A stretch of 64,000 bases of DNA from a virus (Duplodnaviria; Heunggongvirae; Uroviricota; Caudoviricetes), in IMG/VR virus record IMGVR_UViG_2778261559_000013; one strand, 5' to 3'. The position numbers and the translations under genes were made by a program. Shown here piece by piece: positions 1,002 through 22,406 of this stretch. The number at the start of each line of letters is the position of its first letter. Position 1 is the first letter of the stretch. Below the pieces are notes generated by a model. That model made no database searches. It saw only the letters and a program-made list of their open reading frames with translations, and was not told the origin of the DNA.

Positions 1002-1531
1002 TTATAAAGCGTGGAAACAGCCACATCATAGATGATTGCAACCTGCTTACGGGGGATGCCCTTCTCCAGCAATCGCCGCATTTGCTGCCATGTTTCTTCT
1101 TGGTATTTAGGCCGACGCCCACCTATACGACCTTCTGCGCGAGCTGCATCAAGTCCAGCGCGTGTACGTTCAACGATAAGCTCACGTTCCATTTCTGCCA
1201 GCGCCCCCATTACGTGAAAGAAAAAGCGCCCCATTGGTGTACTGGTGTCGATGGAGTCAGTGAGACTCCGGAAGTTAATGCCTCTGTCACGCAGCTCTTC
1301 CACCAGCACAACTAAGTGACGCATGCTGCGCCCAAGACGGTCTAACTTCCATACGACCAGGGTATCACCTCTGGAAAGCATACGGAGTACCTTTTTTAAC
1401 CCAGGGCGCTCAGCCTTTTTGCCGCTCGCCTTGTCCTCAAAAATTAGCTCACATCCTGCGCTTTCAAGAGCGTTTCGTTGTAAAGCAGTGTTTTGTTCAT
1501 TTGTTGATACGCGTACATAGCCTATTAGCAT
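971..1531 (-). CDS. cin: serine DNA invertase (Cin/Gin/Pin/Hin family), 186 aa
   Basis: MLIGYVRVSTNEQNTALQRN...GDTLVVWKLDRLGRS...FFFHVMGALAEMERELIVERT...IIYDVAVSTLYKKF is a textbook resolvase/invertase catalytic domain with a C-terminal HTH. It sits beside the tail-fibre variable segment as in P1 and Mu. Confidence 0.9.
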   Translation of the reverse strand: MLIGYVRVSTNEQNTALQRNALESAGCELIFEDKASGKKAERPGLKKVLRMLSRGDTLVVWKLDRLGRSMRHLVVLVEELRDRGINFRSLTDSIDTSTPMGRFFFHVMGALAEMERELIVERTRAGLDAARAEGRIGGRRPKYQEETWQQMRRLLEKGIPRKQVAIIYDVAVSTLYKKFPASSFQS

Positions 1532-1658
1532 ATTTTCTGCTCACTATCGTTATTTATAGCAAGCTGCGGATTTTAATTAACAAAAACCAGTATGTGTGGA
1601 AATCACAAAGTACATACCGTTTCCCAATGATATTTAATTCACTATTAAGGAAATAGTT

Positions 1659-1940
1659 ATGTGTGATTTCACAATAATGCTCCTCTCCATCCTTGGCGGG
1701 GTGCATTCGTTTCTGAATGGGATTTGTGAAAAACGTTACGAAGCGTCATGCAGGCAATTGATGGCCGAGTGTATTGCTGCCGTACTTGCAGGCTTTATAG
1801 GCATGTATTTCGCGGAATATAAGGGTATGGATGAAAGTCTTCAGAATTGCGTGACTATTATTTGCAGCATCAATAACAGGCTCATTCTTGAAAAGTTACA
1901 AAGGATTATTGATTCGTACCTCAATAGAAATGCCTCTTAA
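1659..1940 (+). CDS. small hydrophobic protein, first gene of the lysis/dar operon
   Basis: ATG with AAGGA RBS; hydrophobic N-terminus (MLLSILGGV...AAVLAGFIGMYF). No homologue recognised. Confidence 0.45.
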   Translation: MCDFTIMLLSILGGVHSFLNGICEKRYEASCRQLMAECIAAVLAGFIGMYFAEYKGMDESLQNCVTIICSINNRLILEKLQRIIDSYLNRNAS

Positions 1941-2007
1941 GCAACAAATGACCGGTTGAGAAGTTACTTTGCATACCATTACCTCCTGACAACGTAGGAG
2001 GGAACTT

Positions 2008-2337
2008 GTGCTTGACACACAGGAATTAGCTCCAGTTGCTATTGCGCTCCTGCTTTCAGTAATTGGTGGGATAGGCACGTTCCTGATGGATGTCCGAGAC
2101 GGTCGCCAGTCTGGCAATTTGTTGGGATTGGTTACGGAGATCTTTGTTGCAGTGACAGCTGGCGCGGTGGCGTACCTATTGGGGCAACACGAGGGCTGGG
2201 AGTTATCAATTACGTACTTAATGGTAACGATAGCCAGCAATAACGGTCATGAGGTGATTTCAGGGATGAAACGAGTGAATATCGATAGCATTCTGAATGT
2301 TCTTACAAGTTTGGTGAAAAAGGGAGGCGGGAAATGA
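2008..2337 (+). CDS. holin (LydA-like by position), 109 aa
   Basis: GTG start after AGGAGG RBS; three predicted TM segments (VAIALLLSVIGGIGTFL, FVAVTAGAVAYLL, LSITYLMVTIA); stop overlaps the next gene. Confidence 0.6.
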   Translation: MLDTQELAPVAIALLLSVIGGIGTFLMDVRDGRQSGNLLGLVTEIFVAVTAGAVAYLLGQHEGWELSITYLMVTIASNNGHEVISGMKRVNIDSILNVLTSLVKKGGGK

Positions 2338-2777
2338 TTGGCTGGGGTGTATGCGTTCTTGCGTTAGCCTTAGCCGATCGCTATTTGCTAAAACGCAAGG
2401 ACATCACGCATTTAGAACTTGGTGATGTGGAAATTAAACCGGGTTTCATCCGGGTGCCGTTCAAGTACCGGTCTAAATTCCCGTTTTTGCGCGGCGCAAC
2501 GGTCAGATATTGGATCCGCGATGTTCAGAAGCCGACGACAGTGATTGAAGGTGAACAACGTTGTCTGACGTCGGCTGAACAGGGCGAAAACAGTGAATGG
2601 TTGTACATACCCACTGAATATATGGGTAAAGGAGAGCGACTGTGGCATTTCAACGTCATGGTTACGCATGGCGACTCGTTCATTAACCCGTTGTATCGGA
2701 TTTTCCCTGTTACTCAGCAAATCCGCAGAAGTTACGTAATAAATCTCGCGCAGGATGTGTCAGATGACGAAAAATAA
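2334..2777 (+). CDS. holin-associated protein (LydB-like by position), 147 aa
   Basis: ATGA overlap with the upstream holin; N-terminal TM segment. Assignment by synteny only. Confidence 0.5.
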   Translation: MIGWGVCVLALALADRYLLKRKDITHLELGDVEIKPGFIRVPFKYRSKFPFLRGATVRYWIRDVQKPTTVIEGEQRCLTSAEQGENSEWLYIPTEYMGKGERLWHFNVMVTHGDSFINPLYRIFPVTQQIRRSYVINLAQDVSDDEK

Positions 2778-3366
2778 GTATGCAACGGTCGATTTTGACC
2801 AGGTTAATGAAAAGGGGCTGAAATCCCTTATCGCGGCGATCAATAAAACCGGGGTTACGGTAATTGAGGTTGACTCCAGCAACCGCGCAACAACGAAAGA
2901 TGGCGTTAAAGTTAAAACCGCAAAGCTGGTTCTTAACGACGGACAAATTCTTGCCATACAGGTAAACGATACTGGCGATATATCGTCTGTGAAACTGAAT
3001 GGAAAAGCTATTCCTAACGCTCAGTCGCCGGATATCAAGACGCTTGGTACCGTCATGGGACAGGCGGCCCGTAAAAACTCCGCAAAATTCCAGAAATCAC
3101 TGATCGCCAAAGCGAAGCGTGTTGCCAATCCGGTAGACAAGAAACCGGCAGTTAAATCCAACTTTCAGCGCCTGCAAGAAGCAAAACAGCGGAATGCTCA
3201 GGTGGTTGCCGCTTATAAGTCCGCGCAGAATTCGGTGTCTTTCAATCAACAGCAGATCACTGATTTGCGGGCGAAGCTGGATAAGGAGACGGGCCGACTC
3301 AATAACGAAAAGGCACGGAATGGCGAACTCAAACTTCGTCTTAAGCAACTGAAAGCAGGAAATTAA
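2755..3366 (+). CDS. Hdf-like capsid/antirestriction protein (homologue of a DarA fragment), 203 aa
   Basis: Shares the segment KNSAKFQ followed by a coiled coil with the 639-aa protein immediately downstream. An alternative start is the second ATG at 2764. Confidence 0.6.
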   Translation: MCQMTKNKYATVDFDQVNEKGLKSLIAAINKTGVTVIEVDSSNRATTKDGVKVKTAKLVLNDGQILAIQVNDTGDISSVKLNGKAIPNAQSPDIKTLGTVMGQAARKNSAKFQKSLIAKAKRVANPVDKKPAVKSNFQRLQEAKQRNAQVVAAYKSAQNSVSFNQQQITDLRAKLDKETGRLNNEKARNGELKLRLKQLKAGN

Positions 3367-3367
3367 C

Positions 3368-5287
3368 ATGGAACAGTTCAATATCAATAAAGGGGTGACG
3401 ATCAAGCCTGGGCTTGACGTGCTTCCCCCGCCAGTGACTGATGATGAATATCGCGCATTAATGGCCGGTGAGGACCGCTATCTGATGACGGAATCCAACA
3501 CCCTGGAGGAAATCGAGGCTACGTTCTTCTATGACACGCCGATCCACTGGTGTGCTACGGATTTACTGGAGGCGATTAGTTCTACTCGTTTGCAGTTACA
3601 CCGGACCATGCAGGCATTTGTCCGGGCATTGAACCAGAAGCTGAATGGTACCGGAATCTCTGCGGGGAGTGATAAAACGGGGGAGGTGGCCCAGAGCGGC
3701 GCGCGCGCGATCGGCGGTGCTGAAATTGGCCGGGCACGTAACGTTAACGGGCTGCCGGTCCTGCCAGCCATTATTCCGCTCAGTGATGGTCAGACTATCA
3801 GCATTCTGTTTCATAGCCCGACAGCGGAAAACCGGATCACCAATAGCGATACGCTGGTTGCTTTCCAGTTCTTACTGAATAAAAAAGACGTTACTCACAC
3901 CGTTGCTCCGATGAGTGGACGTGATATGACGCTGGCGCAGGTCACCATGAAACTTGCCAACCTTGCAGAGAAAAACTCGGCAAAATTCCAGCGTGCGCAG
4001 AAGAAGAAAAAAGCCCTTGTTGATGAAATAACCCAACTACAGGCTGACAGTGACCAGAAAGAGGACGCCATGAGCGACCTCGCGGATCAGGTGGCAGCGG
4101 TAGAAGGGCAGAAGGCAGATCTGGAGCAGAAAATTAACGCTGTTGCATCGGAAGCGGATTCTCTTTATGAAGAGAATGAGCGTTTGCAGGGGGAGATTGA
4201 TCGGCTCAATCGCACTGGTGGGCGCGATACCATTGCCCCTGCGGGGATGACTGGTGGGCACTCTCGCGCGCTGACGGATCGCCTTGCCAGTATCAAAAAT
4301 CGTATGCATATGGACGGGGAAGCGACGCTCAGTAATGGTGCATCAATGAAGCAATTCATTGGGGACGGCGAAGGGTATATCCAGTTAACCGATCCGGATG
4401 GCAGCGTATACATGATCAAGGCTAAATCCATACAGGGTGTGGACATGGCAGATGCGATCGGCAAGCTGTTTAAAGCCTATAAAGCGGGTAATGTATCGGA
4501 ATACCTGGTCCAACCAGAAGAACATAAACCGGAAAACGTCGAACCTGAACCAGCGGAGGATACCGGTAGCTCTTCGCCTGAACCAGAAGTCTCTGTAGGT
4601 GCATATCGATATGCCCTGCAAATGCGTCCGGCGGCCCCTGGCGCAATACCTGAAGGTAACAAAGCAATTCTGCCGCGCCCTGATGAAGGTGACCCGTATT
4701 ATGAATATGCACGCTACGGCATTGCTACTTACGATACCCCGCTTTCTGATCAGCAAATGAGTGAGTACGACCTGAAGTTATTGCCTCGCGAGGATTCTTT
4801 CGATTTCCTGGCGAAGACACTTACTAATGGTCCGTTTGGCAAATATGCACAAAAAGCTCTGGAGCTGGCCACCAGCTCACCAGACGAGTTCCGCGTAATG
4901 CTGAAAACTCAGTTTCAAAAAACTTTCCCCAATATTGCGTTTCCTGGGGGCGCTGGCACCGAGAAAATGGTGCAGAGCATGATCAATGCATTGCAGGCCG
5001 AAGTCGGTGAGATTACTCAGCCAGAACCGGCCCCGGCACAGCCTGATGAAACGGTTAGCGAAGCAGATGCAGAGGCTAATAAAGCCATTGAATATCTCAA
5101 TAACGTGATGGATATGCAAAGCACTGACATGGCGGAGATCCGTAACGCCCGGGGCAATGTCCGGGAAGCGATTGCACCCCTTCAGGCTGCCGGACGTTTT
5201 GAGGAAAACGAAGAGCTGGTTAACGGCGCAGCTCGCCACCTGGCTGATCTGTTGGTAGCAATCCAGAAAGCGGGGGTAGCGGCATGA
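3368..5287 (+). CDS. darA: DarA antirestriction capsid protein, 639 aa
   Basis: Size, position in the lysis/dar operon, internal homology to the upstream Hdf-like protein, long coiled-coil centre, acidic PEP-rich linker. My recollection of P1 DarA size and operon order agrees. Confidence 0.7.
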   Translation: MEQFNINKGVTIKPGLDVLPPPVTDDEYRALMAGEDRYLMTESNTLEEIEATFFYDTPIHWCATDLLEAISSTRLQLHRTMQAFVRALNQKLNGTGISAGSDKTGEVAQSGARAIGGAEIGRARNVNGLPVLPAIIPLSDGQTISILFHSPTAENRITNSDTLVAFQFLLNKKDVTHTVAPMSGRDMTLAQVTMKLANLAEKNSAKFQRAQKKKKALVDEITQLQADSDQKEDAMSDLADQVAAVEGQKADLEQKINAVASEADSLYEENERLQGEIDRLNRTGGRDTIAPAGMTGGHSRALTDRLASIKNRMHMDGEATLSNGASMKQFIGDGEGYIQLTDPDGSVYMIKAKSIQGVDMADAIGKLFKAYKAGNVSEYLVQPEEHKPENVEPEPAEDTGSSSPEPEVSVGAYRYALQMRPAAPGAIPEGNKAILPRPDEGDPYYEYARYGIATYDTPLSDQQMSEYDLKLLPREDSFDFLAKTLTNGPFGKYAQKALELATSSPDEFRVMLKTQFQKTFPNIAFPGGAGTEKMVQSMINALQAEVGEITQPEPAPAQPDETVSEADAEANKAIEYLNNVMDMQSTDMAEIRNARGNVREAIAPLQAAGRFEENEELVNGAARHLADLLVAIQKAGVAA

Positions 5288-5649
5288 CACTATCAGCTAT
5301 TGAGTTAATGGATCTCAGCGATAAGTTGGATGCTCTGATGTCCAAAGCGGCTACCGCGAGTGGTATGGAGTTGCTGGATATCAGCGATGAAATTGACCAG
5401 ATCATGCAACAGATGGGGTACGGCGCGTCCGGCGGTGGTAGTGGCGAGGAAAAACAACCTTCGGAACATGATGGTGTGCCAAAACTGGTTGCTGATTTCC
5501 TGGCTGATAAATTCGTCGATCAGAGCACCGATGCATTTATCGGTACCTTGCAGGATTTGAGTCAATATGTTGGCACATACATCGACCTGGACCAGGTTAA
5601 ACAGCACACGGCGGCATGGATAGCCGCCAACATTAAAGAGGCAGCATAA
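5284..5649 (+). CDS. DdrA-like small acidic protein, 121 aa
   Basis: ATGA start/stop overlap with darA; acidic. Named by synteny only. Confidence 0.5.
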   Translation: MTLSAIELMDLSDKLDALMSKAATASGMELLDISDEIDQIMQQMGYGASGGGSGEEKQPSEHDGVPKLVADFLADKFVDQSTDAFIGTLQDLSQYVGTYIDLDQVKQHTAAWIAANIKEAA

Positions 5650-5661
5650 GGCGTAACAGGG

Positions 5662-8649
5662 ATGAGCTTAAGCGATCAGGTGGTAATGGCCACCAGCATA
5701 GAAACGCTGATCGAGCTGCTAAAGAACCTGCCCGATTATGGGCGGGTTTCGTATGTGGTGACAGCGAAGGGAGACGAGGTAAAAACAGCGTTTGATATCG
5801 TCGATGCCTCAGTTCTTTTGGTATCCAATACTCTGGATGGGAAAATTAATCCAGACTATCCCCAGGAACTTCAGCCGCGCGACCGGACCCGCGCATCCAG
5901 CCTTCTTCAGGTCAACCAGATATCCAAGGATTTGCGTCCTGCCCAGCTTACCGATTCCGGTTTATCCAGCCATGGCGCGCCAATAATTGGTGAGGACAAT
6001 GCCGTTGAGTCAGGTAATGGGCGGACCATGGGGATCATTAAAGCCTATCAGGACGGTAATGCGGATCGGTATCGGGAGTACCTGATTGAACATGCGACCG
6101 AATTCGGCATACGGCCTGAAAAGGTTGAATCAATGACGGCTCCGGTACTGGTGCGCCGCCGGTTAACGAAGGTTGACCGTGTTCAGTTTGCCAAGGACTC
6201 AAATATTTCTGATCTCCAGGAAATGGCAGCCAGTGAAAAGGCTTTTGTTGATGCCGACAGCATAACACCGGCGATGATGGCGTTGTTTAACCCGTCAGAA
6301 AGTGGAGATCTGCTTAGCCGCAGTAATGACGCGTTTATTCGCGGATTTATGACGCAAGTTGGTGCCACACAGGCGGCTGGCCTTGTAACTGAAGATGGGC
6401 GACCAACACGGCAACTTGTAGACCGTATACAAAACGCGATCTTTGCCAAGGCATATAAGGATGCGCGCTTGGTAAGGATGGTTGCAGAAGAACCTGATCC
6501 GGATATGCGTAATGTTCTGACGGCGCTTAATGCGGCAGCCAATGATTTTGTCCAGATGCAGGCTTTATCAGGAGAAGCGCACAAGCAGGCTGTGACAACT
6601 ATTGTTGATGGCATTGAGACAGCGGATAGCCTCGATAAAAAGGCGCTGGAGGCATTGAAAGATGCGGTAGACCTGGTAAGGCAATCGAAGGAGTCAGGCC
6701 AGCATATTACCGATGTTATTGCTCAGGGGGATATGTTCAGCGAAACGGCCCCGGAAGTGAAAGCACTCGCGTTGTTCATCGTCGCGAATAACCGTAGCGC
6801 GAAGCGTATGGCCACCGCCTTTAAGTTGATGGCTCAACGTATCAATGATGAGTTACAGCACCAGGGCCAGGCGCTGGGGGATATGTTTGGCGGCGGCGAT
6901 GTGTCGTTACAGGATATCCTTCGCCAGGTGTCTCAGGAACTGGAAAACGAAGGCATGCAAGGGATATCCGGCGGTCTTTTCGAGTCCGTTTCCGGCGGTA
7001 GTTACAACGGTGTTGCTCCGTATACCAGTTTGCTATTACATCGGGCATCCGGCATCAAAGACATTATTCATCTGATCAGGCTGCTTTCCCGCACAGATCC
7101 CCAGGATGAACAGCTTGTACAAGTGCTTGCGCATTTTGTTCGAATGCCTGTTGCCGACGTGAAAAAATGGTGCCGATTATTCGGTATCAGCAATTCGTTA
7201 CTTCGCGGATTGTTAAATCACGCATCCTCCCTTGGGCGCGACGGCTTTGATGAGATAGCGCAGGCGATAAAAAACGGAGATATGCCACCAGCTATTGACT
7301 GGTTTTCCATTCGCCCAACCAGAGTGAAAGCATTCCTTAGCGCGGCGCAATCAGCATCACCATTGGCAGAAATGGTTCAGAGGTTATCGCTCATATTCAC
7401 AGACCATACCGCGTTGGGTGATCTGACTCTGGACGAGATGAAAGAAGCCTCCATTCAGTGGGCCGATCAACAAAATGAGGTTAACTCAGACTTCTTGCCA
7501 GCATTCAGGAAGGCCGTTAGTAAAGCGGATGATGCCCGTGGAATTCTGAAGGCATTTAAGGCATTGCAAAGTCGTGTTAATAAACATGTCGGTGATATCG
7601 ATGGGGTAACGGCGGAAGGCCGGGATATCCTTAAAGAGCACGGCATAACGCCAGAGTTTATTGATGAGATCAGGACTGATATGCAGCGTGAGGTCGTATC
7701 GTCCCTGCAAATCGTAGCCAGAGCGTTGGCGGATGCTAATCCGAAGAGTGCGGCCATTGTTAACCGGGTTATTGGTGATATTGAAGCATCGGAGGGCATG
7801 GGGGCGCTGAAACTCTTCCTTTCGCGAGCGTTTAATCCTAACGGCAATATTCTCCCTGGCATTATTGGTGAGGCTAAAAAGTATGTCAGTGAAGAAGAAC
7901 TTGAGCAGCTTGACCAACTACTTAAGCGATTCTCATATAACCCGCAGACACGCTGGCAAATGAATCAGCGAAGTATGGGTTCGGTCCACGAGAAAGTGTT
8001 ATCTGCCATGAACAGTGCGATCGCAAACTCATCCGTATCTGAAGAAAAAGCTCTTGAGTGGGCCGACTCTTTTATCACAGAAGAAGTGGAAGAAGTCCGC
8101 GCTGGACAGAATGGTGGGATAGACCTGCGCAAGGAACTTGCTGATATTTATCGCCTGACCGGCGGGAAAATATCGACCTTATCAAAGGTAGTTCACCACC
8201 AGGGAAGGGCATATGCAAATCTTAATGGTGTTGTTGCTGTCAATTTGAACGATGAAAATGCAAGTGCACTGTGGCACGAGCTGGGTCATCATCTTGAGTA
8301 CAGTAACCCTGGTTTGTTAGAGAAAGCCCGGTCATTCCTGAAGGCCAATGTTGAAGGGGATAAGCCATCTTTCGTCAATATCGGTGGGCGTGGCAAGCCT
8401 GAATGGTGCTTCAGATCTCGATTGAGTAATATTTATATGGCGAAGGTATACCCGCCAGCCTCAGTAAGTAACACCGGGAAAATTCGGCAGAAATCACCGA
8501 CTATTTCCAAAACGTCAGCAACGGAAGTATTCTCTATGGCTCTTCAGTTGTATCATGACAAAGAGGCCGCTGCCGCATCACTGATGAATGGTGACGGATT
8601 GCTGGAACTGTTATTAGGTGTGGCAAAGGAGCTAAATAATGCAGATTAA
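5662..8649 (+). CDS. DdrB-like large capsid/antirestriction protein with a C-terminal HExxH zincin motif, 995 aa
   Basis: Co-operonic with darA. Contains ALWHELGHHLEYSNPG (HELGH, nt 8275-8292), a classic zinc-metallopeptidase signature. Name by synteny. Confidence 0.6.
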   Translation: MSLSDQVVMATSIETLIELLKNLPDYGRVSYVVTAKGDEVKTAFDIVDASVLLVSNTLDGKINPDYPQELQPRDRTRASSLLQVNQISKDLRPAQLTDSGLSSHGAPIIGEDNAVESGNGRTMGIIKAYQDGNADRYREYLIEHATEFGIRPEKVESMTAPVLVRRRLTKVDRVQFAKDSNISDLQEMAASEKAFVDADSITPAMMALFNPSESGDLLSRSNDAFIRGFMTQVGATQAAGLVTEDGRPTRQLVDRIQNAIFAKAYKDARLVRMVAEEPDPDMRNVLTALNAAANDFVQMQALSGEAHKQAVTTIVDGIETADSLDKKALEALKDAVDLVRQSKESGQHITDVIAQGDMFSETAPEVKALALFIVANNRSAKRMATAFKLMAQRINDELQHQGQALGDMFGGGDVSLQDILRQVSQELENEGMQGISGGLFESVSGGSYNGVAPYTSLLLHRASGIKDIIHLIRLLSRTDPQDEQLVQVLAHFVRMPVADVKKWCRLFGISNSLLRGLLNHASSLGRDGFDEIAQAIKNGDMPPAIDWFSIRPTRVKAFLSAAQSASPLAEMVQRLSLIFTDHTALGDLTLDEMKEASIQWADQQNEVNSDFLPAFRKAVSKADDARGILKAFKALQSRVNKHVGDIDGVTAEGRDILKEHGITPEFIDEIRTDMQREVVSSLQIVARALADANPKSAAIVNRVIGDIEASEGMGALKLFLSRAFNPNGNILPGIIGEAKKYVSEEELEQLDQLLKRFSYNPQTRWQMNQRSMGSVHEKVLSAMNSAIANSSVSEEKALEWADSFITEEVEEVRAGQNGGIDLRKELADIYRLTGGKISTLSKVVHHQGRAYANLNGVVAVNLNDENASALWHELGHHLEYSNPGLLEKARSFLKANVEGDKPSFVNIGGRGKPEWCFRSRLSNIYMAKVYPPASVSNTGKIRQKSPTISKTSATEVFSMALQLYHDKEAAAASLMNGDGLLELLLGVAKELNNAD

Positions 8650-8947
8650 AATCGCAGCGCCATTAGGCGGAGATGCCATTATCGAATTTGATGATAATGA
8701 AGAAGTTTCCGGGCGTTTAAGCATTATCTCCGGTGACATTACCGAGGACATGATCGCTGAAGCCATAGCTGGGGCAAATCCCAATAGCTATATGGGATTC
8801 GTTAACACCCTTGATGCTCCCGCAAGTGATGTTCTCCGAACGCTGCATCTTTACGCTGGCTGGTTTGTTGATTGGCCAGCAGTAGAGGGTGGCGATGAGG
8901 ACGACGACGATGATTTGGGTGATCATGTGGATCAGTTTGTATATTAG
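8639..8947 (+). CDS. small acidic protein, 102 aa, last gene of the dar operon
   Basis: Start overlaps the end of the 995-aa gene; C-terminal DEDDDDD tract. Confidence 0.45.
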   Translation: MQIKIAAPLGGDAIIEFDDNEEVSGRLSIISGDITEDMIAEAIAGANPNSYMGFVNTLDAPASDVLRTLHLYAGWFVDWPAVEGGDEDDDDDLGDHVDQFVY

Positions 8948-9729: not shown

Positions 9730-11085
9730 TCAGAGTCTATCAAAAATAGAGCCTTTTCTCGGTACAAATATTTTCTCATACAGTCGAGTAGCGTAATCAT
9801 CTGTCATGCCTGAAACATAGTCGCAAATGACGCGCATTTTTTTATCATCACCTTTTGCTTCCTCTTGATTATATTTCTTTCGAGTTTCTGTCGGGAGAAA
9901 ACGTATTGGGTCATTTGCCAGTACATTGAATAGTTCCACAATCAGTTTCTGACCTTTGAACTCTAATAGTTGGACGTTTTCGTGCTGAATAACTTTGTTC
10001 CTAACCAGCTCAAAAATGGCTTTACGTAACTCTTCTACCGCGGCAGGAAGTGCCACTTTATAGCGTAAAATTTTACTTTTGAAATCAGAGTTCTGCACTT
10101 CAAGCTTAACGCTAGTGATCATCAGATGAACAAGTGTCCCTATGCACTCCTTGCGTAGATAACTTTCGCCGAACAGTTTTTCAGCTACATCATCGGCTTT
10201 TAGATTAAACGAGTCGCATTGGCAAGCTGCAAATAAATGGGATTTGTCCTCGAAGTGCTCCTCCCACATTTTTTTGTCGATCATCTTCAGAGAAATTGCG
10301 TCTTCAAGATCATGGAGTGAGTAGGATATCTCATCAGCCAAGTCCATAATCGTTGTATCCAGTGCTTTATATATTGTTTCCTTGTGCTTATTCAACGCGG
10401 TAGATTTTACCGTTTTGAATAACTTAACATCATCACTATCAAAAGGTTGGAGTGCGAATCTAACAGTGTTCTCCTCAGAGTCCAGGTAACATTTCGGGGG
10501 CTTAAATTCGGATGATTTAAACAACCACTCATTGCTTCTTGGCTGTAACTGGCTGTAAGCCCTCTCATTGACGACCTCTGAATAGCTTGCTGGATATTTC
10601 AGTACGCCTAAAATAAGTCTACGGGTGGGATCCAGCCCATTGGTTTCGGTGTACTTATCCAGTTTGGAGAGTATACGCAGTGTCTGCCCGTTACCTTCAA
10701 AGCCGCCATAGGATCTCATGCAGTAGTTTAGTGCGACCTCACCACCATGACCGAAGGGGGGATGTCCTATATCATGAGCAAGGCAGATAGCCTGCATCAG
10801 GCTTGGGTCAGGTAAGAATTTACCCCCCTCATCTGTATCGCGCTTAGACAACTGAGACAAGATACCGCCGCCAATTTGCGCTACTTCCATAGAGTGAGTT
10901 AGACGCGTACGGTAGAAATCGCTTTCGCCCAATCCCAACACCTGCGTCTTCGATTGTAATCTCCTAAAAGCGGAAGAGTGGATTAACCGGGAAAGATCAC
11001 GTTCATACTCCGACCTTATCTCATTCGGGCGGGTGGTATTGTACCCTTGACGCTCATACCAAGTATTTTCTTTGCAGTGTGTCAT
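9730..11085 (-). CDS. dGTP triphosphohydrolase (Dgt family, HD domain), 451 aa
   Basis: RTRLTHSMEVAQIGG and AICLAHDIGHPPFGHGGE are the Dgt-family HD motifs. Start set at ATG 11083-11085 (MTHCKENTWYERQ...), preceded by AAGGAA; the track ORF extends 33 codons further upstream. Confidence 0.85.
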   Translation of the reverse strand: MTHCKENTWYERQGYNTTRPNEIRSEYERDLSRLIHSSAFRRLQSKTQVLGLGESDFYRTRLTHSMEVAQIGGGILSQLSKRDTDEGGKFLPDPSLMQAICLAHDIGHPPFGHGGEVALNYCMRSYGGFEGNGQTLRILSKLDKYTETNGLDPTRRLILGVLKYPASYSEVVNERAYSQLQPRSNEWLFKSSEFKPPKCYLDSEENTVRFALQPFDSDDVKLFKTVKSTALNKHKETIYKALDTTIMDLADEISYSLHDLEDAISLKMIDKKMWEEHFEDKSHLFAACQCDSFNLKADDVAEKLFGESYLRKECIGTLVHLMITSVKLEVQNSDFKSKILRYKVALPAAVEELRKAIFELVRNKVIQHENVQLLEFKGQKLIVELFNVLANDPIRFLPTETRKKYNQEEAKGDDKKMRVICDYVSGMTDDYATRLYEKIFVPRKGSIFDRL

Positions 11086-11261
11086 ACGTGTTCCTTTGGG
11101 CAGGATAGAGCAAGTCGCCTGCTTAATTGCTGAAGAAAGAAATACAAATTTGTAACGCTGTGGATCTTCTTTATGCGTCCACAATCAGTAAATATTGGAT
11201 ACTTGCAAGGTGCGCGAAACACTAAAGATTGTCAATTAATAATTAACACCTCTTATAGTTA

Positions 11262-15638: not shown

Positions 15639-18600
15639 ATGAACAAGCTATCTATGGGGGTGTTTCGCTGTTCAAGTGTCAGCGAAATATTGAAATACAT
15701 TAGTGCAATAACATCTCACCGAGCGCCGATTAGATACGGCGTGGAAAAGGTGGAAGGCAAAAGCTATGACCGACTACGCCGGGAGGCGAATCAGAAGGCG
15801 ATAGATTTGCTTAATTCGCTGGTGGACGGCGCGACACTGACAGATGAACAGCGCCAGATCCTGGCTGGGTACACCGGCGAAGGCGGCATTGGCGGGTCCG
15901 TCTCCGAATATTACACACCAAAGCCGATCGCTGAAGGTGTCTGGGAGATCATGAAGCTCTACGGCGCGGACGTAGGTAACACTCTGGAACCATCGGCGGG
16001 AACCGGCGTTTTTAATGAGACAAAACCGGTTGGTACGGTGATGACCGCGACTGAGATCAGCAGTGTTTCCGGTCGTATAAACCAGCTGTTGCACCCGGAA
16101 GACAGCGTACAGATTTCTCCGTTCGAACAACTGGCTGTAAGCACGCCTAACGATTCATTCGACCATGTTGTGGGTAACGTTCCGTTCGGTGGTCGTGATA
16201 ACACACGCAACATCGATAAGCCTTACGCAGAAGAAACGGACATGGGTTCTTACTTCATGCTCCGCATGCTGGACAAGATAAAGCCAGGCGGATTCATGTG
16301 CGTGATTGTGCCGCCGTCCATTGTTTCAGGTTCAAACATGAAGCGGTTACGCCTGCGCCTATCACGGAAAGCTGAATTTCTTGGTGCCCACCGCTTGCCT
16401 ACCGGTACTTTTGACGCAAACGGGACCAGTACAGTTGTTGATGTGGTGCTGATGCGCAAACATCCGGCAGAGATGGCTGAGAAAATCCCCCTGGTGGATG
16501 AAAGCACTCTCGAATCGGCAAATGTGCTTTGGCCAACGTTTATTTCTGGCAAGTGGTTTGAAAAGGATGGCCGCCGGTTTGTTCATGGCACCCAGGAAAA
16601 GGGCTTCCAGGGGCGTATTGAGGTTCGTGCCGACGGTCAGATTGATAACCAGGCTCTTAAAGCGAAGCTGATTCATCGTTTCGAAAGCCGTATCGACTGG
16701 TCTTTGCTCGATATGGCTGAACCGTCACCGACCGCAGACGTTGTTGGTGAAGGGGAAATGCGCCTGATTAATGGCGTATGGCAAAAATATGCTGGTGGTC
16801 GCTGGATTGAAGCTGATGCCGGGAAGGAACTTAAGATCGATGCTGCCAGTTATGGCGCGGATAGCTGGGAGGCTCTTCAGCGTAACCTGACTACAACAGA
16901 AGGCCGTCTCGGCATGACATTTACCCAGATGGCAAATGTCCGCGATAAGTACACCACATCAATCAGCGACGATATGGTGCAGCTGGTGGACTGGATTAAC
17001 AGCCAGCCTGAAAAATACCGTGAACGCTTGTATCGCGGGGCGATGATTGGCCGGATGTTAATTGAATATCAGGACATGAAGGCCGCCGGGCATAGTGCTG
17101 AACAAATCGAACAGCAGCGCCTTTCTCTGGTATCCCGTTTGCAGGCAGAGATTGACCGTTTTGGTAACCCCGGTCGCGGTCCGATAGCGAAATTGTCGGG
17201 GAGCGGTGCGCGCGCCTGGTTTGCTTTCCGTGGTGCAATTAAGCTGGATGGCACTATTTCTGACGAGCTGACAGGGAAGCTGGTTACGCATGATTCCAGC
17301 GCAAGTTATGACTCCACCAGCTATCAGGACACCCTGCGTTATCTCTATAGCGATCTCACCCGCGATCCAATCCAGCTCGATGATTTCCGCCTTGCGTTTA
17401 CCGGCGAACTGCCAGCCAGTGATGAAGAGTTGCTTAATTTATTGGCCAGCACCCCTGGTATTGCGGTTTCACCGTATGGCGGGATTGTTCCGTTCGCCCG
17501 CGCCACCAGCGGCGACATTAACGAGATAGTGGCTCCAAAACAGGAATTCCTCGCCACACTCCCCGACGGTCCAGTAAAGAACAACGTCCTTAATCAGCTG
17601 GCAGCTATCGAAGAGAAGCGCATCAAGACGCCAGCAGAGAATATCCGGTTTAAGCTCAATAGCCGTTGGTTCGACCGTTCCGTCATTCTGGAATTTTTGC
17701 AGGAAAACGGCTATCCGGATCTGCGCTATGTGCAGTCAGTGCAGCTGGAAGGCGACGAAATGGTTTCTGACACCTATCACGGTGGTGATGGTCTGTTCGT
17801 CGGGCACCGATACGGTGTCGTCCAGCGCAAGGATAAAGAAACAGGTGAGATTCGCTACGAGTGGGACCGTAAATCAGGTGAAAACGCGACCGGGTTCCCG
17901 GCACAGCTGGAAAAGTATCTCAATGGTGCGCGTATCGGTGGCAAAGATAGCGCGACGGCGAACGGCTACCGCGAGCAGATGGCACTGCTTGAGGACCAGT
18001 TCAATAAGTGGATCAAGACGCACGATCGCTACGATGAGCTGGTTGCCAAATACAACGATGTGTTCAATAGCAATATCCCGTATGAACACTCTGGCGATCC
18101 GCTTGGGTTGAAGGGATTAAGCGGTAAGCGCCAGCCATTTGATTACCAGAATAGCGAGGTGCGCCGACTGTCCGAAGATGGGCGCGGCATCCTGGGCTTC
18201 GGCACCGGGCTGGGTAAAACCACGACCGCGCTGGCGCTTGAGGCGTTCAACTATGAGAACGGTCGCTCCACCCGTACTGCGTATGTAGTGCCTAAATCAG
18301 TGCTGGAAAATTGGTATTACGAAGCAAAAGAATTCCTGAGTGAAGAGGCATTCAGTAACTACTTGTTCGTCGGTCTTGATGTGCTGATGGATGGCGATCA
18401 GATTCGCCAGGTGCCGGTGCTCAATGAGAACGGTAAACCTGTTCTTGGTACTGATGGCACTCCAGTTATGCGCGATGCTCTTAAGCTGGCAGATGAAGCC
18501 ACTATCACGGCGCGGATGAACGCGATCCCGCACTCAAATTACCGTGCAGTCGTGTTTACCAAAGAACAATACGCCCGCATTCCGCTACGTGATGACACCG

Positions 18601-21600
18601 TAGATGAGCATGCACAAGACATGCTTTATGACTTCGTTGCCGCCGGGCGCGTAGCCAGCGCAATGGACTCCGACTCCCACCGCAAAGAGGCGGCGCGTCG
18701 CCGGGTATTGTCGGAGTATTCAGATACCGGTACCGAAAAAGCAGAGAAGTATCCGTACTTTGAGGATATGGGCTTCGACAGCGTGATTGCTGACGAAGGC
18801 CACAACTACCGCAATAGCTATAAAAATGGTCGCGAAGCGTCACAGCTGGCCTATCTGCCCACCAGCGCGGTGGCGCAATCGGCGCGAGATATGGCAATCA
18901 AAAACGCGTACTTGATGAAAAAGAATGGCGGGCGCGGACCGGTTCTCCTGACTGCAACACCAGTCGTTAACACCCCGATCGATGCATACAACATGCTTTC
19001 TCATGTTCTGCCGAAGGAATACTGGCAGAAGATGGGGATCTACAGTCCTGATGACTTCGTAAAATTCTTCGGCAAGACCAGGCTGGAAACGGTACAGAAA
19101 ATCAGCGGCGAAGTTGAAGAAAAAATGGCGCTGGTGGGTTTTGAAAACCTTGATGCGCTGCGCGGCATATTCCATCGCTGGACAACGCTTAAAACGGCGG
19201 AAGACGTTAAGGATACCGTGGAGATCCCGGAACTGGACGAACACCAGCAGGATGCACCACTTACTGAAGAACAACTGGCGGCGTATGAAGAATTGCGTCA
19301 GCAGGCGGAAGCGGCGGCCAAAGCCAACAATGGTGTAACGACCTCGGTCAATGAAGACGGCGTGATTGAGCACGAGAAAGCCCGTCCGATCTTCTCAATA
19401 ATCAGGGATATGGACCGCGTATGTACTGACATGGACCTGTACTATCGCCGGATCACCTATCGTTTCCTGCCGGAGTACGCCGATGCGGTGCAGCAGCTGG
19501 CAGACAGTTTGCCTAAACAAGCCACCAGCGAAGACGACGACAGTGATGATTCAATCACGCAGCAATCGCAATACTCCCTGATAGATAAGGGCGAGTTTAT
19601 TCAGTTGCAGGTTCCGGAAGCGTTCGAGCAGGAAGTGAATAAGCGCCTGGCCAGGTTTGGCATTGACGAACAGACCGTAACTCACCCCGTTACGCCCAAA
19701 TACGCGAAGCTGATTGCCACGCTGAAGGAGTTTTTCCCGGAAGGTAAGCAAATCATCTTCACCGATGAAAAAACGCAGCACCAGAAGCTCAAGCGCATTA
19801 TCTGCAATGCTCTTAACCTTGAACCTTCAAAGGTGGGGATACTGAATGCTCAGACGGTTGCCGAGGCAGGTAAAACCGGTAAGAAACTGAAAGCGGTTAA
19901 ACCGCCGAAAGAGTTACCGGATGAACCAACAGATGCACAGATAGCGAAATACAACGAGCAAATGGCTCTGTATGACGCCTATATCGCGCAGCAAAATGAA
20001 ATGTCGTTGGGCGGTCTGGAAAAGATTGCAGCCGACTTCCAGGAGGGCCGGACTCCGATCATCATCTGCAACAAAAAGGCAGAGGTGGGTATCAACCTGC
20101 ATCGAGGAACGACTGACATCCATCATCTGACGTTGCCATGGACTCCAGCCAGTATTGCGCAACGAAACGGTCGCGGTGCCCGAGTTGGCTCCAACCGTGC
20201 AAGCGTTCGCGTTCACTACTACTGCGGCAAGGGTTCTTTCGATGAATACCGACTGAAGACGCTGAAGCGTAAAGCAGGCTGGATCTCCGATATCCTCCGT
20301 TCAGATAAGTCAGAAATGGAGAACGCCGACGCCAACGATATGATCGAAATGCAGATGTATACCGCTAAGGATGATGGCGAACGTCTGGCAATGATGCAGG
20401 TTCAAATGGATAAGGCGAAAGCCGCGCAACGCGCTCGCCAGAAAGAACAGGCTACTATCGACCTTCAGAACTACATCAAGGCGCAGCACGCAGCTGGTGA
20501 GGATGTGGAGGTGCTTACCGCTGAATTAGAGCGAAGCAAAGCGGAACTTGAAAAGACCACCGCCGAGGTAGCTAAATTCAAACAGGCGGCAATGGCCAAG
20601 GCAGCGGATAACGCAGACTGGAAGGCACGCTGGGGGAGTGTCCATCACACAGACCGTATGTTGTTAGCACAGTATCGCGCGTCGTTGAAAAGCGCCATTC
20701 AGCGCAAGGCTAATATCTCTCAAGCCATCTCCCGCTATGAGAAATTATTGAACCGTACTCAGAAGGCCGCGACGGATATCAAACGCCTGCGCCCGCTGGT
20801 GGAGGATGCATTAAATAAAGGCATTCTGGATGTTGATCCTGACCTGGTTAACCATGCGAGTGAGTTCCTTGTTATCGGCGATCGCTCATGGCGTGTAGGC
20901 CAATACTACGATTGTGCCGGTGATATCGTTCGCATTAAGTCGCTGGACTTCGACAGCCAGCGCGCAGACGTGGAGATCATCTTCACCTTCAAAGGCACCA
21001 AATCTGGTAACTGGGATGTGAAGACGCTGGATAAACAGGTTGATGTAACTCCCGATGAAGATGCTGTTATGCAGAAAATCAGTGGTGGCGTCTCCATCGC
21101 CGGGATTAACGACATCGTTTCCTGTGACGATTTCTACCGTTTCCAGCAGCGCGGCATGATCAAAATCACTGACTCATACGGCGTTCAGACTACAGAGTCA
21201 GGCTATAGCATTGATTTTGTTGGTACCTATACGGACCCACTGAAGCATGCGGTTTACCCGGATCGCCGTGACGGCGCGCTGAAGTCGTCAATTGCAAAAT
21301 GGGTGCTTGGTATGATGTCGGAAGGGAATAACCGCCAGATCCGTTCGGCAGAAGCATTCCTGGTTGAACTGTTTGGCTCCAATTATGGCGATGTAATCGC
21401 GTCATACGGAGATACGCTATCCCCTGAAGCAATTCAGGAGAAAATAGCGGATGCGATCGCCAGAATGCCGGAGAAAACAAGCCAGGGGGCTACTCGTAAC
21501 GGGGATTCTGAACTTGAAGTCACCAATGCCATTTTCGGTACCAATGAGTTCCGGGCGTCAGATTATGAGATCACCACAGCACAGTTTGGCACCATTGGCA

Positions 21601-22406
21601 TTTACAGCAATAAAGACGAGATCAAGCAGGCAATGGACGCAGCAAGCGCGCGCATTGCAGCAGAACGGAAAGTCAATCTGAATCATGCAGTCGCCGCGCT
21701 GACTCAATCGTGGGTAACAGCAATCAGGGAGGCCGCCACCACAGGAAAAATCACACCGGCAATTGCGGATGTCGTAAACGACGGCTCTAAATTTATGGAT
21801 GCCTATAAAATGGATGCGGTGCAGTTGCCATCAGCCTATGGGCAACTCAGCTATCGCATGACCTACAACCTGGTATCAATGTTTACCGACCTTGCCATCC
21901 TTGGGCTGGTGGACCTTAACGAGGTTACGCCGGAATTGCTCAGCATGCGCAAGAATCATGTGGAGATATTGCACAGAATTAACACGGTACTTGCCGGGCG
22001 CACCGATGAAGAGAAACAGGCAGACGCTGATCGGATAAACCTGGCCCTTGGCAACATCACGGAGGAAGAAATTGCTGCCAGAAACGAGAAACAAGAAGAG
22101 TTATCATCAATACAGGGTGATGCCACCAGCATAGCTCAGTCTCTTGGTCTGAATTATCGCGTATCCACCGCCGACCTGAAGATGATGTACGCACCAAAAT
22201 TCGCCGCTGGCGAGGTATTTGGGCTTCAGGAAGCCTCCGGCATGAAAGGGGTTCTTTTCCGTGCGAAAGACGCAATCAAGGCGAAATTCGGCGCTCGCTG
22301 GTTGCCAGCGAAGGCGAAGAACAGCGACTTCCCAGGTAACTGGTGGATTATCGAGACAAAACACAACGTGGCGGACGTTCTGGCCGTCATCCAACAATAC
22401 GCATAA
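15639..22406 (+). CDS. darB: DarB antirestriction protein: N-terminal N6-adenine methyltransferase-like domain fused to an SF2 (SNF2-like) helicase, 2255 aa
   Basis: AdoMet motif I LEPSAGTGVF (aa 116-125), motif IV GNVPFGG (nt 16173-16187), Walker A GFGTGLGKTTTA (nt ~18195-18230), DEGH box (nt 18792-18803), motif III LLTATPVVNTP, motif VI QRNGRGARVGS (nt ~20157-20192). 2255 aa matches my recollection of P1 DarB. Confidence 0.85.
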   Translation: MNKLSMGVFRCSSVSEILKYISAITSHRAPIRYGVEKVEGKSYDRLRREANQKAIDLLNSLVDGATLTDEQRQILAGYTGEGGIGGSVSEYYTPKPIAEGVWEIMKLYGADVGNTLEPSAGTGVFNETKPVGTVMTATEISSVSGRINQLLHPEDSVQISPFEQLAVSTPNDSFDHVVGNVPFGGRDNTRNIDKPYAEETDMGSYFMLRMLDKIKPGGFMCVIVPPSIVSGSNMKRLRLRLSRKAEFLGAHRLPTGTFDANGTSTVVDVVLMRKHPAEMAEKIPLVDESTLESANVLWPTFISGKWFEKDGRRFVHGTQEKGFQGRIEVRADGQIDNQALKAKLIHRFESRIDWSLLDMAEPSPTADVVGEGEMRLINGVWQKYAGGRWIEADAGKELKIDAASYGADSWEALQRNLTTTEGRLGMTFTQMANVRDKYTTSISDDMVQLVDWINSQPEKYRERLYRGAMIGRMLIEYQDMKAAGHSAEQIEQQRLSLVSRLQAEIDRFGNPGRGPIAKLSGSGARAWFAFRGAIKLDGTISDELTGKLVTHDSSASYDSTSYQDTLRYLYSDLTRDPIQLDDFRLAFTGELPASDEELLNLLASTPGIAVSPYGGIVPFARATSGDINEIVAPKQEFLATLPDGPVKNNVLNQLAAIEEKRIKTPAENIRFKLNSRWFDRSVILEFLQENGYPDLRYVQSVQLEGDEMVSDTYHGGDGLFVGHRYGVVQRKDKETGEIRYEWDRKSGENATGFPAQLEKYLNGARIGGKDSATANGYREQMALLEDQFNKWIKTHDRYDELVAKYNDVFNSNIPYEHSGDPLGLKGLSGKRQPFDYQNSEVRRLSEDGRGILGFGTGLGKTTTALALEAFNYENGRSTRTAYVVPKSVLENWYYEAKEFLSEEAFSNYLFVGLDVLMDGDQIRQVPVLNENGKPVLGTDGTPVMRDALKLADEATITARMNAIPHSNYRAVVFTKEQYARIPLRDDTVDEHAQDMLYDFVAAGRVASAMDSDSHRKEAARRRVLSEYSDTGTEKAEKYPYFEDMGFDSVIADEGHNYRNSYKNGREASQLAYLPTSAVAQSARDMAIKNAYLMKKNGGRGPVLLTATPVVNTPIDAYNMLSHVLPKEYWQKMGIYSPDDFVKFFGKTRLETVQKISGEVEEKMALVGFENLDALRGIFHRWTTLKTAEDVKDTVEIPELDEHQQDAPLTEEQLAAYEELRQQAEAAAKANNGVTTSVNEDGVIEHEKARPIFSIIRDMDRVCTDMDLYYRRITYRFLPEYADAVQQLADSLPKQATSEDDDSDDSITQQSQYSLIDKGEFIQLQVPEAFEQEVNKRLARFGIDEQTVTHPVTPKYAKLIATLKEFFPEGKQIIFTDEKTQHQKLKRIICNALNLEPSKVGILNAQTVAEAGKTGKKLKAVKPPKELPDEPTDAQIAKYNEQMALYDAYIAQQNEMSLGGLEKIAADFQEGRTPIIICNKKAEVGINLHRGTTDIHHLTLPWTPASIAQRNGRGARVGSNRASVRVHYYCGKGSFDEYRLKTLKRKAGWISDILRSDKSEMENADANDMIEMQMYTAKDDGERLAMMQVQMDKAKAAQRARQKEQATIDLQNYIKAQHAAGEDVEVLTAELERSKAELEKTTAEVAKFKQAAMAKAADNADWKARWGSVHHTDRMLLAQYRASLKSAIQRKANISQAISRYEKLLNRTQKAATDIKRLRPLVEDALNKGILDVDPDLVNHASEFLVIGDRSWRVGQYYDCAGDIVRIKSLDFDSQRADVEIIFTFKGTKSGNWDVKTLDKQVDVTPDEDAVMQKISGGVSIAGINDIVSCDDFYRFQQRGMIKITDSYGVQTTESGYSIDFVGTYTDPLKHAVYPDRRDGALKSSIAKWVLGMMSEGNNRQIRSAEAFLVELFGSNYGDVIASYGDTLSPEAIQEKIADAIARMPEKTSQGATRNGDSELEVTNAIFGTNEFRASDYEITTAQFGTIGIYSNKDEIKQAMDAASARIAAERKVNLNHAVAALTQSWVTAIREAATTGKITPAIADVVNDGSKFMDAYKMDAVQLPSAYGQLSYRMTYNLVSMFTDLAILGLVDLNEVTPELLSMRKNHVEILHRINTVLAGRTDEEKQADADRINLALGNITEEEIAARNEKQEELSSIQGDATSIAQSLGLNYRVSTADLKMMYAPKFAAGEVFGLQEASGMKGVLFRAKDAIKAKFGARWLPAKAKNSDFPGNWWIIETKHNVADVLAVIQQYA

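What the first reader, a model, noticed from the sequence alone, without database searches (positions are those of the whole stretch)
5662..8649. HExxH zinc-metalloprotease signature in the DdrB-like capsid protein of the Dar antirestriction operon
The 995-aa protein downstream of darA carries ALWHELGHHLEYSNPG (HELGH at nt 8275-8292) in an otherwise unrecognisable sequence. If functional, an injected metalloprotease would be an unusual anti-defence or maturation activity. I am not aware that a protease activity has been assigned to DdrB.
Basis: partly seen in the sequence, partly recalled or inferred. Interest (0 to 1): 0.5.

Follow-up and report, generated by a model that had tools for sequence, protein, structure and literature searches.

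The report
Known predicted zinc protease in DdrB
The HExxH motif is real and belongs to a well-conserved zinc-protease-like domain at the end of phage P1's packaged DdrB protein, but this was already predicted in the P1 genome annotation (2004) and in a 2017 paper, so the finding is correct but not new.

Summary
ORF 5662-8649 (+) encodes a 995-aa protein with ALWHELGHHLEYSNPG at aa 869-884; HELGH is nt 8275-8289. The window is a P1-like phage, and the gene is ddrB (98.6% nt identity to P1, same operon order).

The novelty claim fails. The P1 RefSeq record already notes 'possible metallopeptidase'. Lenart 2013 lists the family as a suspected zincin. Iyer et al. 2017 describe DdrB as a ParB domain plus a C-terminal zincin metallopeptidase and propose autoproteolysis. 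The protein is also not 'otherwise unrecognisable': Pfam ddrB-ParB hits aa 36-167 (E 5e-39).

I found no experimental test of protease activity. Verdict: a real feature, already known as a prediction, low interest.

The parts
5662..8649 (+). ddrB coding sequence (995 aa, 108.8 kDa), an internal head protein of the Dar antirestriction system of a P1-like phage
   Evidence: ORF list and translation. 98.6% nt identity over 100% of the gene to P1 NC_005856 ddrB, with the same gene order. Mass.
5767..6162 (+). DdrB-type ParB/sulfiredoxin-superfamily domain (aa 36-167)
5662..6951 (+). Highly conserved N-terminal module (aa 1-430: ParB domain plus a conserved helical extension)
   Evidence: Mean identity is 68% for both aa 36-167 and aa 168-430 across 43 homologues, with many invariant columns.
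6952..7008 (+). Predicted disordered linker (aa 431-449)
   Evidence: The full-length AlphaFold2 model has pLDDT below 50 for aa 431-449.
7009..7941 (+). Fast-evolving all-helical middle region (aa 450-760), no recognisable family
8014..8646 (+). C-terminal zincin-like metallopeptidase domain (aa 785-995)
8206..8208 (+). R849, an invariant arginine in the beta-sheet region just before the active-site helix
   Evidence: R in 150 of 151 aligned sequences and 44 of 44 in alignment A5. Its role is inferred (substrate or transition-state contact).
8275..8289 (+). HExxH (H872-E873-L-G-H876): two predicted zinc ligands and the general-base Glu, on a helix
   Evidence: H872 and E873 are 153/153; H876 is 153/155. 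All are 44/44 in A5. The motif lies in helix aa 867-881 of the models.
8290..8298 (+). H877-L-E879: family-specific extension of the motif (HExGHHxE)
   Evidence: H877 is 131/155 and E879 is 154/155. Both are 44/44 in A5. Their role is unknown.
8401..8403 (+). E914, an invariant glutamate between the active-site helix and the Tyr segment
   Evidence: 150/153 and 44/44. Its role is unknown.
8434..8451 (+). Y925-x-(G/A)-K-x-Y930 segment; Y930 (or Y925) is the candidate catalytic tyrosine
   Evidence: Y925 is 154/154, K928 is 136/154 and Y930 is 148/154. In compact family members Y930 lies 5-6 residues before the E955 equivalent (alignment A4). E. coli MtfA has Y-x6-E.
8455..8511 (+). Lineage-specific insertion (aa 932-950) between the Tyr segment and the Glu helix
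   Evidence: Only 19-79 of 155 aligned sequences have residues in these columns. pLDDT is lower here, about 62 for the block.
8521..8535 (+). T954-E955-V-F-S958: predicted 'glutamate helix' start; E955 is the candidate third zinc ligand
   Evidence: T954 is 140/155, E955 is 153/155 and S958 is 146/155. E955 and S958 are 44/44 in A5. E955 sits at the N-terminus of helix aa 956-965. Zinc-site geometry was not measured.
2755..5649 (+). Upstream operon partners hdf (2755-3366), darA (3368-5287) and ddrA (5284-5649)
   Evidence: ORFs. Pfam DarA_N hits hdf, and DarA_N plus DarA_C hit darA. Gene order matches the P1 annotation.
15639..22406 (+). darB (2255 aa), the large methyltransferase-helicase Dar protein whose virion incorporation is reported to depend on DdrB
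   Evidence: ORF. Pfam N6_Mtase/Eco57I plus SNF2-rel_dom/Helicase_C. The DdrB role 'Aids DarB addition to capsid' comes from Gonzales et al. 2022, Table.

Best explanation
This is ddrB of a P1-like phage. It encodes a multi-domain ('polyvalent') internal head protein. The parts are a conserved ParB-like N-terminal module (aa 1-430), a flexible linker, a fast-evolving helical spacer (aa 450-760) and a C-terminal zincin domain of about 210 aa (aa 785-995). The C-terminal domain is a genuine, selectively maintained zincin metallopeptidase of the gluzincin type. Its nearest structural relatives are anthrax lethal factor, the Pro-Pro endopeptidases (MEROPS M34) and MtfA (M90). The predicted active site is H872 and H876 (HExxH helix) plus E955 (start of the next long helix) holding the zinc, E873 as general base, and Y930 or Y925 stabilising the transition state. 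R849, H877, E879 and E914 are family-specific additions. The most likely job is limited proteolysis of packaged cargo: cutting DdrB itself, or co-packaged Dar proteins, in the head or just after injection, so that the ParB module is released. This is the proposal of Iyer et al. 2017. Shown here: the motif, its conservation, the fold and the domain architecture. Inferred: zinc binding, catalysis and the substrate. My probabilities: about 0.9 that it is a real zincin-fold domain with an intact active site; about 0.45 that its main role is self or cargo processing. The single confidence value of 0.6 is a compromise between these two.
Against: No experiment shows zinc binding or proteolysis by DdrB. 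The evidence for DdrB processing is indirect. The '76-kDa' form cited by Iyer et al. rests on Lobocka 2004 and Walker & Walker 1981. That size nearly coincides with ORFVI (715 aa, 78.3 kDa), which a one-base error created in the 1998 darA-operon record. The 59.5% virion peptide coverage of the 995-aa protein would need about 85% coverage of a 700-aa fragment, so the C-terminal part may be packaged too. Known maturation cleavages in the P1 head (MCP, DarA) are attributed to the prohead protease Pro, not DdrB. Vibrio P1-like elements carry DdrB-like ParB+InPase proteins with no such peptidase in the four neighbouring genes checked, so the ParB module does not generally need it. No sequence model of a known peptidase family reaches significance, and Foldseek against the PDB found nothing. 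I could not measure the zinc-site geometry in the model because coordinates are not exposed.
Confidence: 0.6

Rival explanations
1. The domain is an injected, trans-acting effector protease. It enters the cell with the DNA and cleaves a host protein (for example a defence component) or another Dar protein such as DarB, rather than DdrB itself.
For: The closest structural relatives are site-specific toxin and effector proteases that act in trans (lethal factor, Pro-Pro endopeptidases). In MuF-family proteins the domain occupies the C-terminal position (P0064: MuF aa 12-123, zincin aa 278-388), where I recall effector or toxin domains usually sit. Some relatives of 170-230 aa begin with Met and look like stand-alone domains, which could not be polyprotein processors. 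[quoted passage not shown] Iyer et al. also allow action after injection.
Against: No substrate is known. The reported role of DdrB is helping DarB into the capsid, which needs no host target. Dar protection acts only in cis on the co-packaged DNA, which fits poorly with a diffusible protease destroying a host enzyme. The short 'stand-alone' proteins may be fragments of metagenomic gene calls.
Confidence: 0.25
2. The domain is a catalytically silent structural or packaging module: a zincin fold reused to target the protein into the procapsid or to bind DarB/Ulx.
For: For the phage N4 virion RNA polymerase, the region containing its zincin domain is required for encapsidation and the protein is packaged unprocessed. 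ArdC and TraC1 are transferred full-length (literature summarised). DdrB's known phenotype is an assembly one.
Against: Every residue expected for catalysis is invariant across more than 150 clusters at 50% identity, while the surrounding sequence drops to 22-49% identity. Pseudo-enzymes normally lose such residues.
Confidence: 0.08
3. The HExxH is a chance pentapeptide with no functional meaning.
For: HExxH occurs by chance in many proteins. No Pfam or NCBIfam peptidase model hits the protein.
Against: Only 0.024 chance occurrences are expected. The motif is invariant in relatives and sits on the active-site helix of a confidently predicted zincin fold.
Confidence: 0.01

Closest known systems
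Phage P1 DdrB (NC_005856, P1_gp022 / YP_006491.1)
   Same: 98.6% nucleotide identity over the whole gene, the same length (995 aa) and the same operon order lydA-lydB-hdf-darA-ddrA-ddrB-hxr. The record's own note reads 'unknown protein function; possible metallopeptidase'.
   Different: A few substitutions only. Downstream of hxr the window carries an HD-domain gene where P1 has isaB-IS1-isaA.
Zincin-like metallopeptidase (MPTase) domains of polyvalent proteins (Iyer, Burroughs, Anand, de Souza, Aravind 2017, J Bacteriol, PMC5512222)
   Same: That paper explicitly assigns a C-terminal MPTase to P1 DdrB and proposes autoproteolysis. It describes the same partner domains I found independently: DdrB-ParB, MuF, ART, InPase and PBECR.
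   Different: No Pfam family model hits DdrB's C-terminal domain or its relatives at E<=1. I recall a Pfam family MPTase-PolyVal (PF18818); it does not appear in any hit table here. The DdrB clade has its own signature, HExGHHxE...E...YxGKxY...TEVxS, which differs from the two variants Iyer et al. describe in the text (His at the end of strand 2 plus Asp three residues after the motif; HExxxH).
MEROPS M34: anthrax lethal factor and Pro-Pro endopeptidases (PPEP-1/2/3)
   Different: Only 15-16% identity and no significant sequence or profile match. Foldseek does not find them. DdrB has extra invariant residues (R849, H877, E879, E914). It is an intracapsid phage protein, not a secreted bacterial toxin.
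MEROPS M90: MtfA (Mlc titration factor A)
   Different: hhalign of the domain profile against MtfA aligns only the 18-residue HExxH helix (probability 1%). Pfam Peptidase_M90 hits 1 of 29 members at E 0.097.
Zincin domains of phage N4 virion RNA polymerase and of ArdC/TraC1
   Same: They are zincin domains inside large proteins that are delivered into the recipient cell with the DNA.
   Different: Those proteins are reported to be delivered unprocessed, and they belong to other clades. I did not compare them directly.

Membership tests
Phage P1 DdrB orthologue | Near-identical sequence and conserved position in the darA operon | tested here: met
   98.6% nt identity, 100% coverage, same flanking genes.
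ddrB-ParB (Pfam PF18763) | Hit above the curated Pfam cut-off | tested here: met
Zincin / gluzincin metallopeptidase superfamily | HExxH on an alpha-helix, conserved among homologues | tested here: met
   H872 and E873 are 153/153, H876 is 153/155. The motif lies in helix aa 867-881.
Zincin / gluzincin metallopeptidase superfamily | Core fold: N-terminal helix, small mixed beta-sheet, active-site helix, then a further helix | tested here: met
Zincin / gluzincin metallopeptidase superfamily | Third zinc ligand (Glu) on a helix downstream of HExxH, positioned next to the two His residues | tested here: inconclusive
   E955 is invariant and lies at the start of a helix. E879 and E914 are also invariant.
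Zincin / gluzincin metallopeptidase superfamily | Zinc binding and peptide-bond hydrolysis | not testable with these tools
   No experimental report found.
Pfam MPTase-PolyVal (PF18818; accession recalled from memory) | Hit to the Pfam model | tested here: not met
   The whole Pfam-A library was scanned, and this family appears in no hit table. No Pfam peptidase family hits DdrB at E<=1. None hits the domain segments of 29 relatives significantly, and none hits the full-length sequences of 68 relatives apart from isolated weak single-member hits to M78 and M64.
MEROPS M34 (anthrax lethal factor / PPEP; Pfam ATLF) | Structural similarity of the catalytic domain | tested here: met
MEROPS M34 (anthrax lethal factor / PPEP; Pfam ATLF) | Significant sequence or profile similarity to family members | tested here: not met
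   No M34 chain appears in phmmer or hmmsearch against PDB sequences at E<=10. ATLF is absent from the Pfam hits. Foldseek is negative.
MEROPS M90 (MtfA) | Significant sequence or profile similarity | tested here: not met
Polyvalent proteins of phages (Iyer et al. 2017) | Several unrelated effector-type domains in one polypeptide of a packaged or injected protein, in a phage late or structural context | tested here: met
   ParB plus zincin in DdrB. Relatives combine the zincin with MuF, Mu portal, InPase, ART and PBECR2. Virion location comes from the literature.

The most novel reading that the evidence does not exclude
The DdrB peptidase is not just a self-processing device. It is an injected, site-specific effector protease of the lethal-factor/PPEP type that cleaves a host defence protein (for example a subunit of a type I restriction enzyme or another defence system) or activates DarB after entry. 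On this reading, proteolysis would be part of the antirestriction mechanism of the DarB/Ulx/DdrB branch, and the several hundred related C-terminal domains on MuF, portal and ParB proteins would be a family of phage-delivered protease effectors that has no Pfam or NCBIfam model.
Probability: 0.12. Interest if true: 0.7.

Novelty: already known. Interest (0 to 1): 0.15.

Why it matters
The finding adds little as a discovery. The metallopeptidase prediction for DdrB has been in the P1 reference annotation since 2004 and was developed in detail in 2017.

Three modest points remain:

- **The prediction now has stronger support.** A confident structure model, a named nearest structural neighbourhood (lethal factor/PPEP/MtfA) and a full list of invariant residues give precise mutagenesis targets.
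- **The domain family has no model in the Pfam-A or NCBIfam copies searched here.** Most P1-like records therefore still call the gene product 'hypothetical protein'.
- **Nobody appears to have tested the activity.** The only cited evidence for DdrB processing is indirect, so a simple H872A/E873A experiment in P1 would settle a 20-year-old annotation.

Tried and rejected
- **Sequence search of the C-terminal 225 aa against PDB chains:** only chance-level hits (Aer2; two type III effectors at E>1). Rejected.
- **Profile (A4) search against PDB chains:** ADAM8 at E 0.35 and a botulinum-like toxin at E 1.2. These are suggestive zincins but not significant, so I use them only as weak support.
- **Pfam, NCBIfam and PHROGs on DdrB:** no peptidase family. 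The PHROG families that cover the C-terminus (phrog_20397, phrog_33618) have unknown function.
- **Pfam at E<=1 on 29 domain segments:** only scattered sub-threshold zincin hits.
- **hhalign of the domain profile against E. coli MtfA:** only the HExxH helix aligns (probability 1%), so M90 membership by sequence is rejected.
- **Word-indexed homologue search with the C-terminal fragment:** only 6 hits. The exhaustive representative search was needed.
- **P0003:** it joins tail-fibre-like repeats to the DdrB C-terminus and looks like an assembly chimera. I did not use it as evidence, although the automated domain alignment included it.
- **A separate peptidase gene next to the peptidase-less Vibrio DdrB-like genes:** none found among the four neighbouring genes checked.
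- **Papers not held:** Piya et al. 2017 (PMC6011833, doi 10.1111/mmi.13705) and Lobocka et al. 2004 (PMC523184) are not in the library. What I say about them comes from papers that cite them.
- **Gonzales 2022 supplement:** it holds no peptide-level map for DdrB, and its structure-homology table lists DdrB as 'ND'.
Full report
**1. Observation**

The window has an ATG-started ORF at 5662..8649 on the + strand, encoding 995 aa. The quoted peptide ALWHELGHHLEYSNPG is aa 869-884 (nt 8266-8313). It is the only HExxH in the protein. About 0.024 chance occurrences are expected from the protein's own composition.

**2. Identity and context**

- The gene is 98.6% identical over its full length to ddrB of phage P1 and to other Punavirus genomes.
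- The flanking ORFs match the P1 darA operon one for one: lydA, lydB, hdf (2755-3366), darA (3368-5287), ddrA (5284-5649), ddrB, hxr (8639-8947).
- Pfam confirms DarA_N on hdf, and DarA_N plus DarA_C on darA.
- The 2255-aa ORF at 15639-22406 has the methyltransferase plus SNF2-helicase make-up of DarB.
- According to the literature, DdrB is an internal head protein (39 unique peptides, 59.5% coverage in virions) annotated as 'aids DarB addition to capsid'.
- It is one of six Dar proteins co-ejected with the DNA, and it is non-essential.

**3. Is the motif meaningful?**

*Conservation, motif-selected set.* A three-sequence profile of the C-terminal domain was searched against 1.84 billion cluster representatives. 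It found 231 proteins at E<=1e-3, 32 at E<=1e-10 and 9 at E<=1e-30.
- Of the 154 proteins fetched, 152 carry HExxH. The two exceptions are fragments that lack that part of the domain.
- In a 155-sequence domain alignment these residues are invariant or nearly so: R849, A850, A852, H872, E873, G875, H876, H877, E879, E914, Y925, K928, Y930, T954, E955, V956, S958 and G986 (curated subset A4).

*Conservation, independent set.* Hits selected with a profile that contains the motif could be circular, so I built a second set.
- A search with the whole protein recruits many homologues only through the very conserved N-terminal half (42-48% query coverage).
- Every protein of at least 900 aa among those scanned still ends in this domain with HExxH.
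- In an alignment of 44 full-length proteins, mean identity is 68% for aa 36-167 and for aa 168-430, 17% for aa 450-760 and 38% (22-49%) for aa 785-995. All thirteen key residues except K928 (K or R) and T954 (T or S) are 44/44.
- This is the pattern of an active site under purifying selection in a domain that is otherwise diverging.

*Fold.*
- AlphaFold2 on aa 785-995 with alignment A4 gave mean pLDDT 92.3 and pTM 0.89.
- The same peptidases recur when the full-length model (pLDDT 81.4, pTM 0.52) is used, alongside ParB-like hits for the N-terminus.
- Foldseek against the PDB was negative, and no sequence-level method reaches significance against a solved or curated peptidase family. The link to named families is therefore structural only.

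*Active site.*
- HExxH lies in helix aa 867-881.
- E955 sits at the start of helix aa 956-965, in the motif TEVxS(M)G.
- Y925 and Y930 lie in a short segment before it.
- In compact family members Y930 is 5-6 residues before the Glu. P1-type proteins carry a 19-residue insertion there (aa 932-950), which has lower pLDDT.
- E. coli MtfA shows HEVAH ... Y-x6-E-C-F-A.
- From my knowledge of the M34 and M90 literature, that Tyr and Glu are the catalytic tyrosine and the third zinc ligand. By analogy I assign H872, H876 and E955 as zinc ligands, E873 as the base and Y930 (or Y925) as the helper.
- This assignment is an inference. I could not measure distances in the model, and E879 and E914 are also invariant with unknown roles.

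**4. What the protein is as a whole**

- It is not 'otherwise unrecognisable'. Pfam ddrB-ParB hits aa 36-167 at E 5e-39.
- The layout is a conserved N-terminal module (aa 1-430), a disordered linker (aa 431-449, pLDDT below 50), a variable helical region (aa 450-760) and the zincin domain.
- Relatives of the zincin domain are attached to other modules. In 68 scanned relatives, ddrB-ParB occurs in 16, Phage_Mu_F in 11, and Portal_Mu, InPase and ADP-ribosyltransferase domains each in one or two; a PBECR2 nuclease appears in P0138.
- Some proteins carry two or three copies of the zincin domain.
- The domain is C-terminal in 104 of 154 proteins and internal in 27.
- Vibrio P1-like elements have a 614-aa ParB+InPase DdrB-like protein with no such peptidase in the protein or in the four neighbouring genes checked.
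- The zincin is therefore a mobile accessory module of head-packaged 'polyvalent' proteins.

**5. Mechanism**

*Best-supported reading.* This is a catalytically competent zincin that performs limited proteolysis on packaged cargo, DdrB itself first of all. Iyer et al. 2017 proposed this. I put about 0.9 on 'real zincin with an intact active site' and about 0.45 on 'self or cargo processing'.

*Cautions.*
- The only cited evidence for a processed 76-kDa DdrB comes from Lobocka 2004 and Walker & Walker 1981.
- aa 1-700 would weigh 76.4 kDa. However, the 1998 operon sequence split the gene by a one-base error into ORFVI (715 aa, 78.3 kDa) and ORFVII, so the size match is not independent proof.
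- The 59.5% virion peptide coverage suggests that the C-terminal part may be packaged as well.
- Known P1 head cleavages are assigned to the prohead protease Pro.

*Rivals.*
- A trans-acting injected effector protease (0.25).
- A silent structural or packaging module (0.08). The invariant catalytic residues argue against it.
- A chance motif (0.01). This is refuted.

**6. Comparison with what is known**

- The P1 RefSeq record annotates ddrB as 'unknown protein function; possible metallopeptidase'.
- Phage JL22 annotates 'putative metallopeptidase'.
- Lenart et al. 2013 cite the ddrB family as a suspected but undescribed zincin.
- Iyer et al. 2017 name the N-terminal domain after DdrB, identify the C-terminal zincin and discuss its function.
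- I found no paper reporting an experimental test.

**7. Verdict**

It is already known as a prediction. Novelty: already known. Interest: 0.15.

The most novel reading still open is a phage-injected, lethal-factor-like effector protease acting on host defence. I give it a probability of about 0.12, and it would deserve an interest of about 0.7 if shown.

Noticed in passing
window 9730-11184 (-): A 484-aa ORF with Pfam HD (PF01966) plus HD_assoc (PF13286), the make-up of dGTPase/dNTP-triphosphohydrolase-like proteins. It lies between hxr and ssb, where P1 NC_005856 carries isaB-IS1-isaA. It could be prophage-borne cargo, possibly a nucleotide-depleting anti-phage gene.
   Followed up: partly
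L005 (AJ000741.1) 301-3287, equivalent to window 5662-8649: The 1998 darA-operon record splits ddrB into ORFVI (715 aa, 78.3 kDa) and ORFVII (283 aa) because of a one-base difference near codon 690. The often-quoted '76-kDa processed DdrB' is close to this artefactual ORF size, so the evidence for processing deserves re-examination.
   Followed up: partly
window 5662-6951 (DdrB aa 1-430): The N-terminal ParB module and its helical extension (aa 168-430) are far more conserved (68% mean identity, dozens of invariant residues from E. coli to Vibrio) than the peptidase domain. Pfam has only weak, sub-threshold hits within aa 168-430. This looks like the functional core of DdrB.
   Followed up: partly
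L003 and L004 (Vibrio contigs), 606-7845: Vibrio P1-like elements have a Dar-type operon with a giant 1485-aa DarA-like protein, a 230-aa protein and a 614-aa DdrB-like ParB+InPase protein without the peptidase. It sits next to parAB and a 2247-aa DarB-like gene.
   Followed up: partly
window 6183-6614 (-): A 143-aa antisense ORF lies inside ddrB, at the position of the P1 annotated gene iddB ('unknown protein function'). I gathered no evidence on whether it is expressed.
   Followed up: no
protein P0009 (1009 aa) and P0157, P0159: Some E. coli proteins share about 80% of DdrB at 95-99% identity but have a different N-terminus with no ddrB-ParB hit; precomputed Pfam shows PF01464 and PF03406 instead. 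They could be module-swapped variants or assembly chimeras.
   Followed up: no
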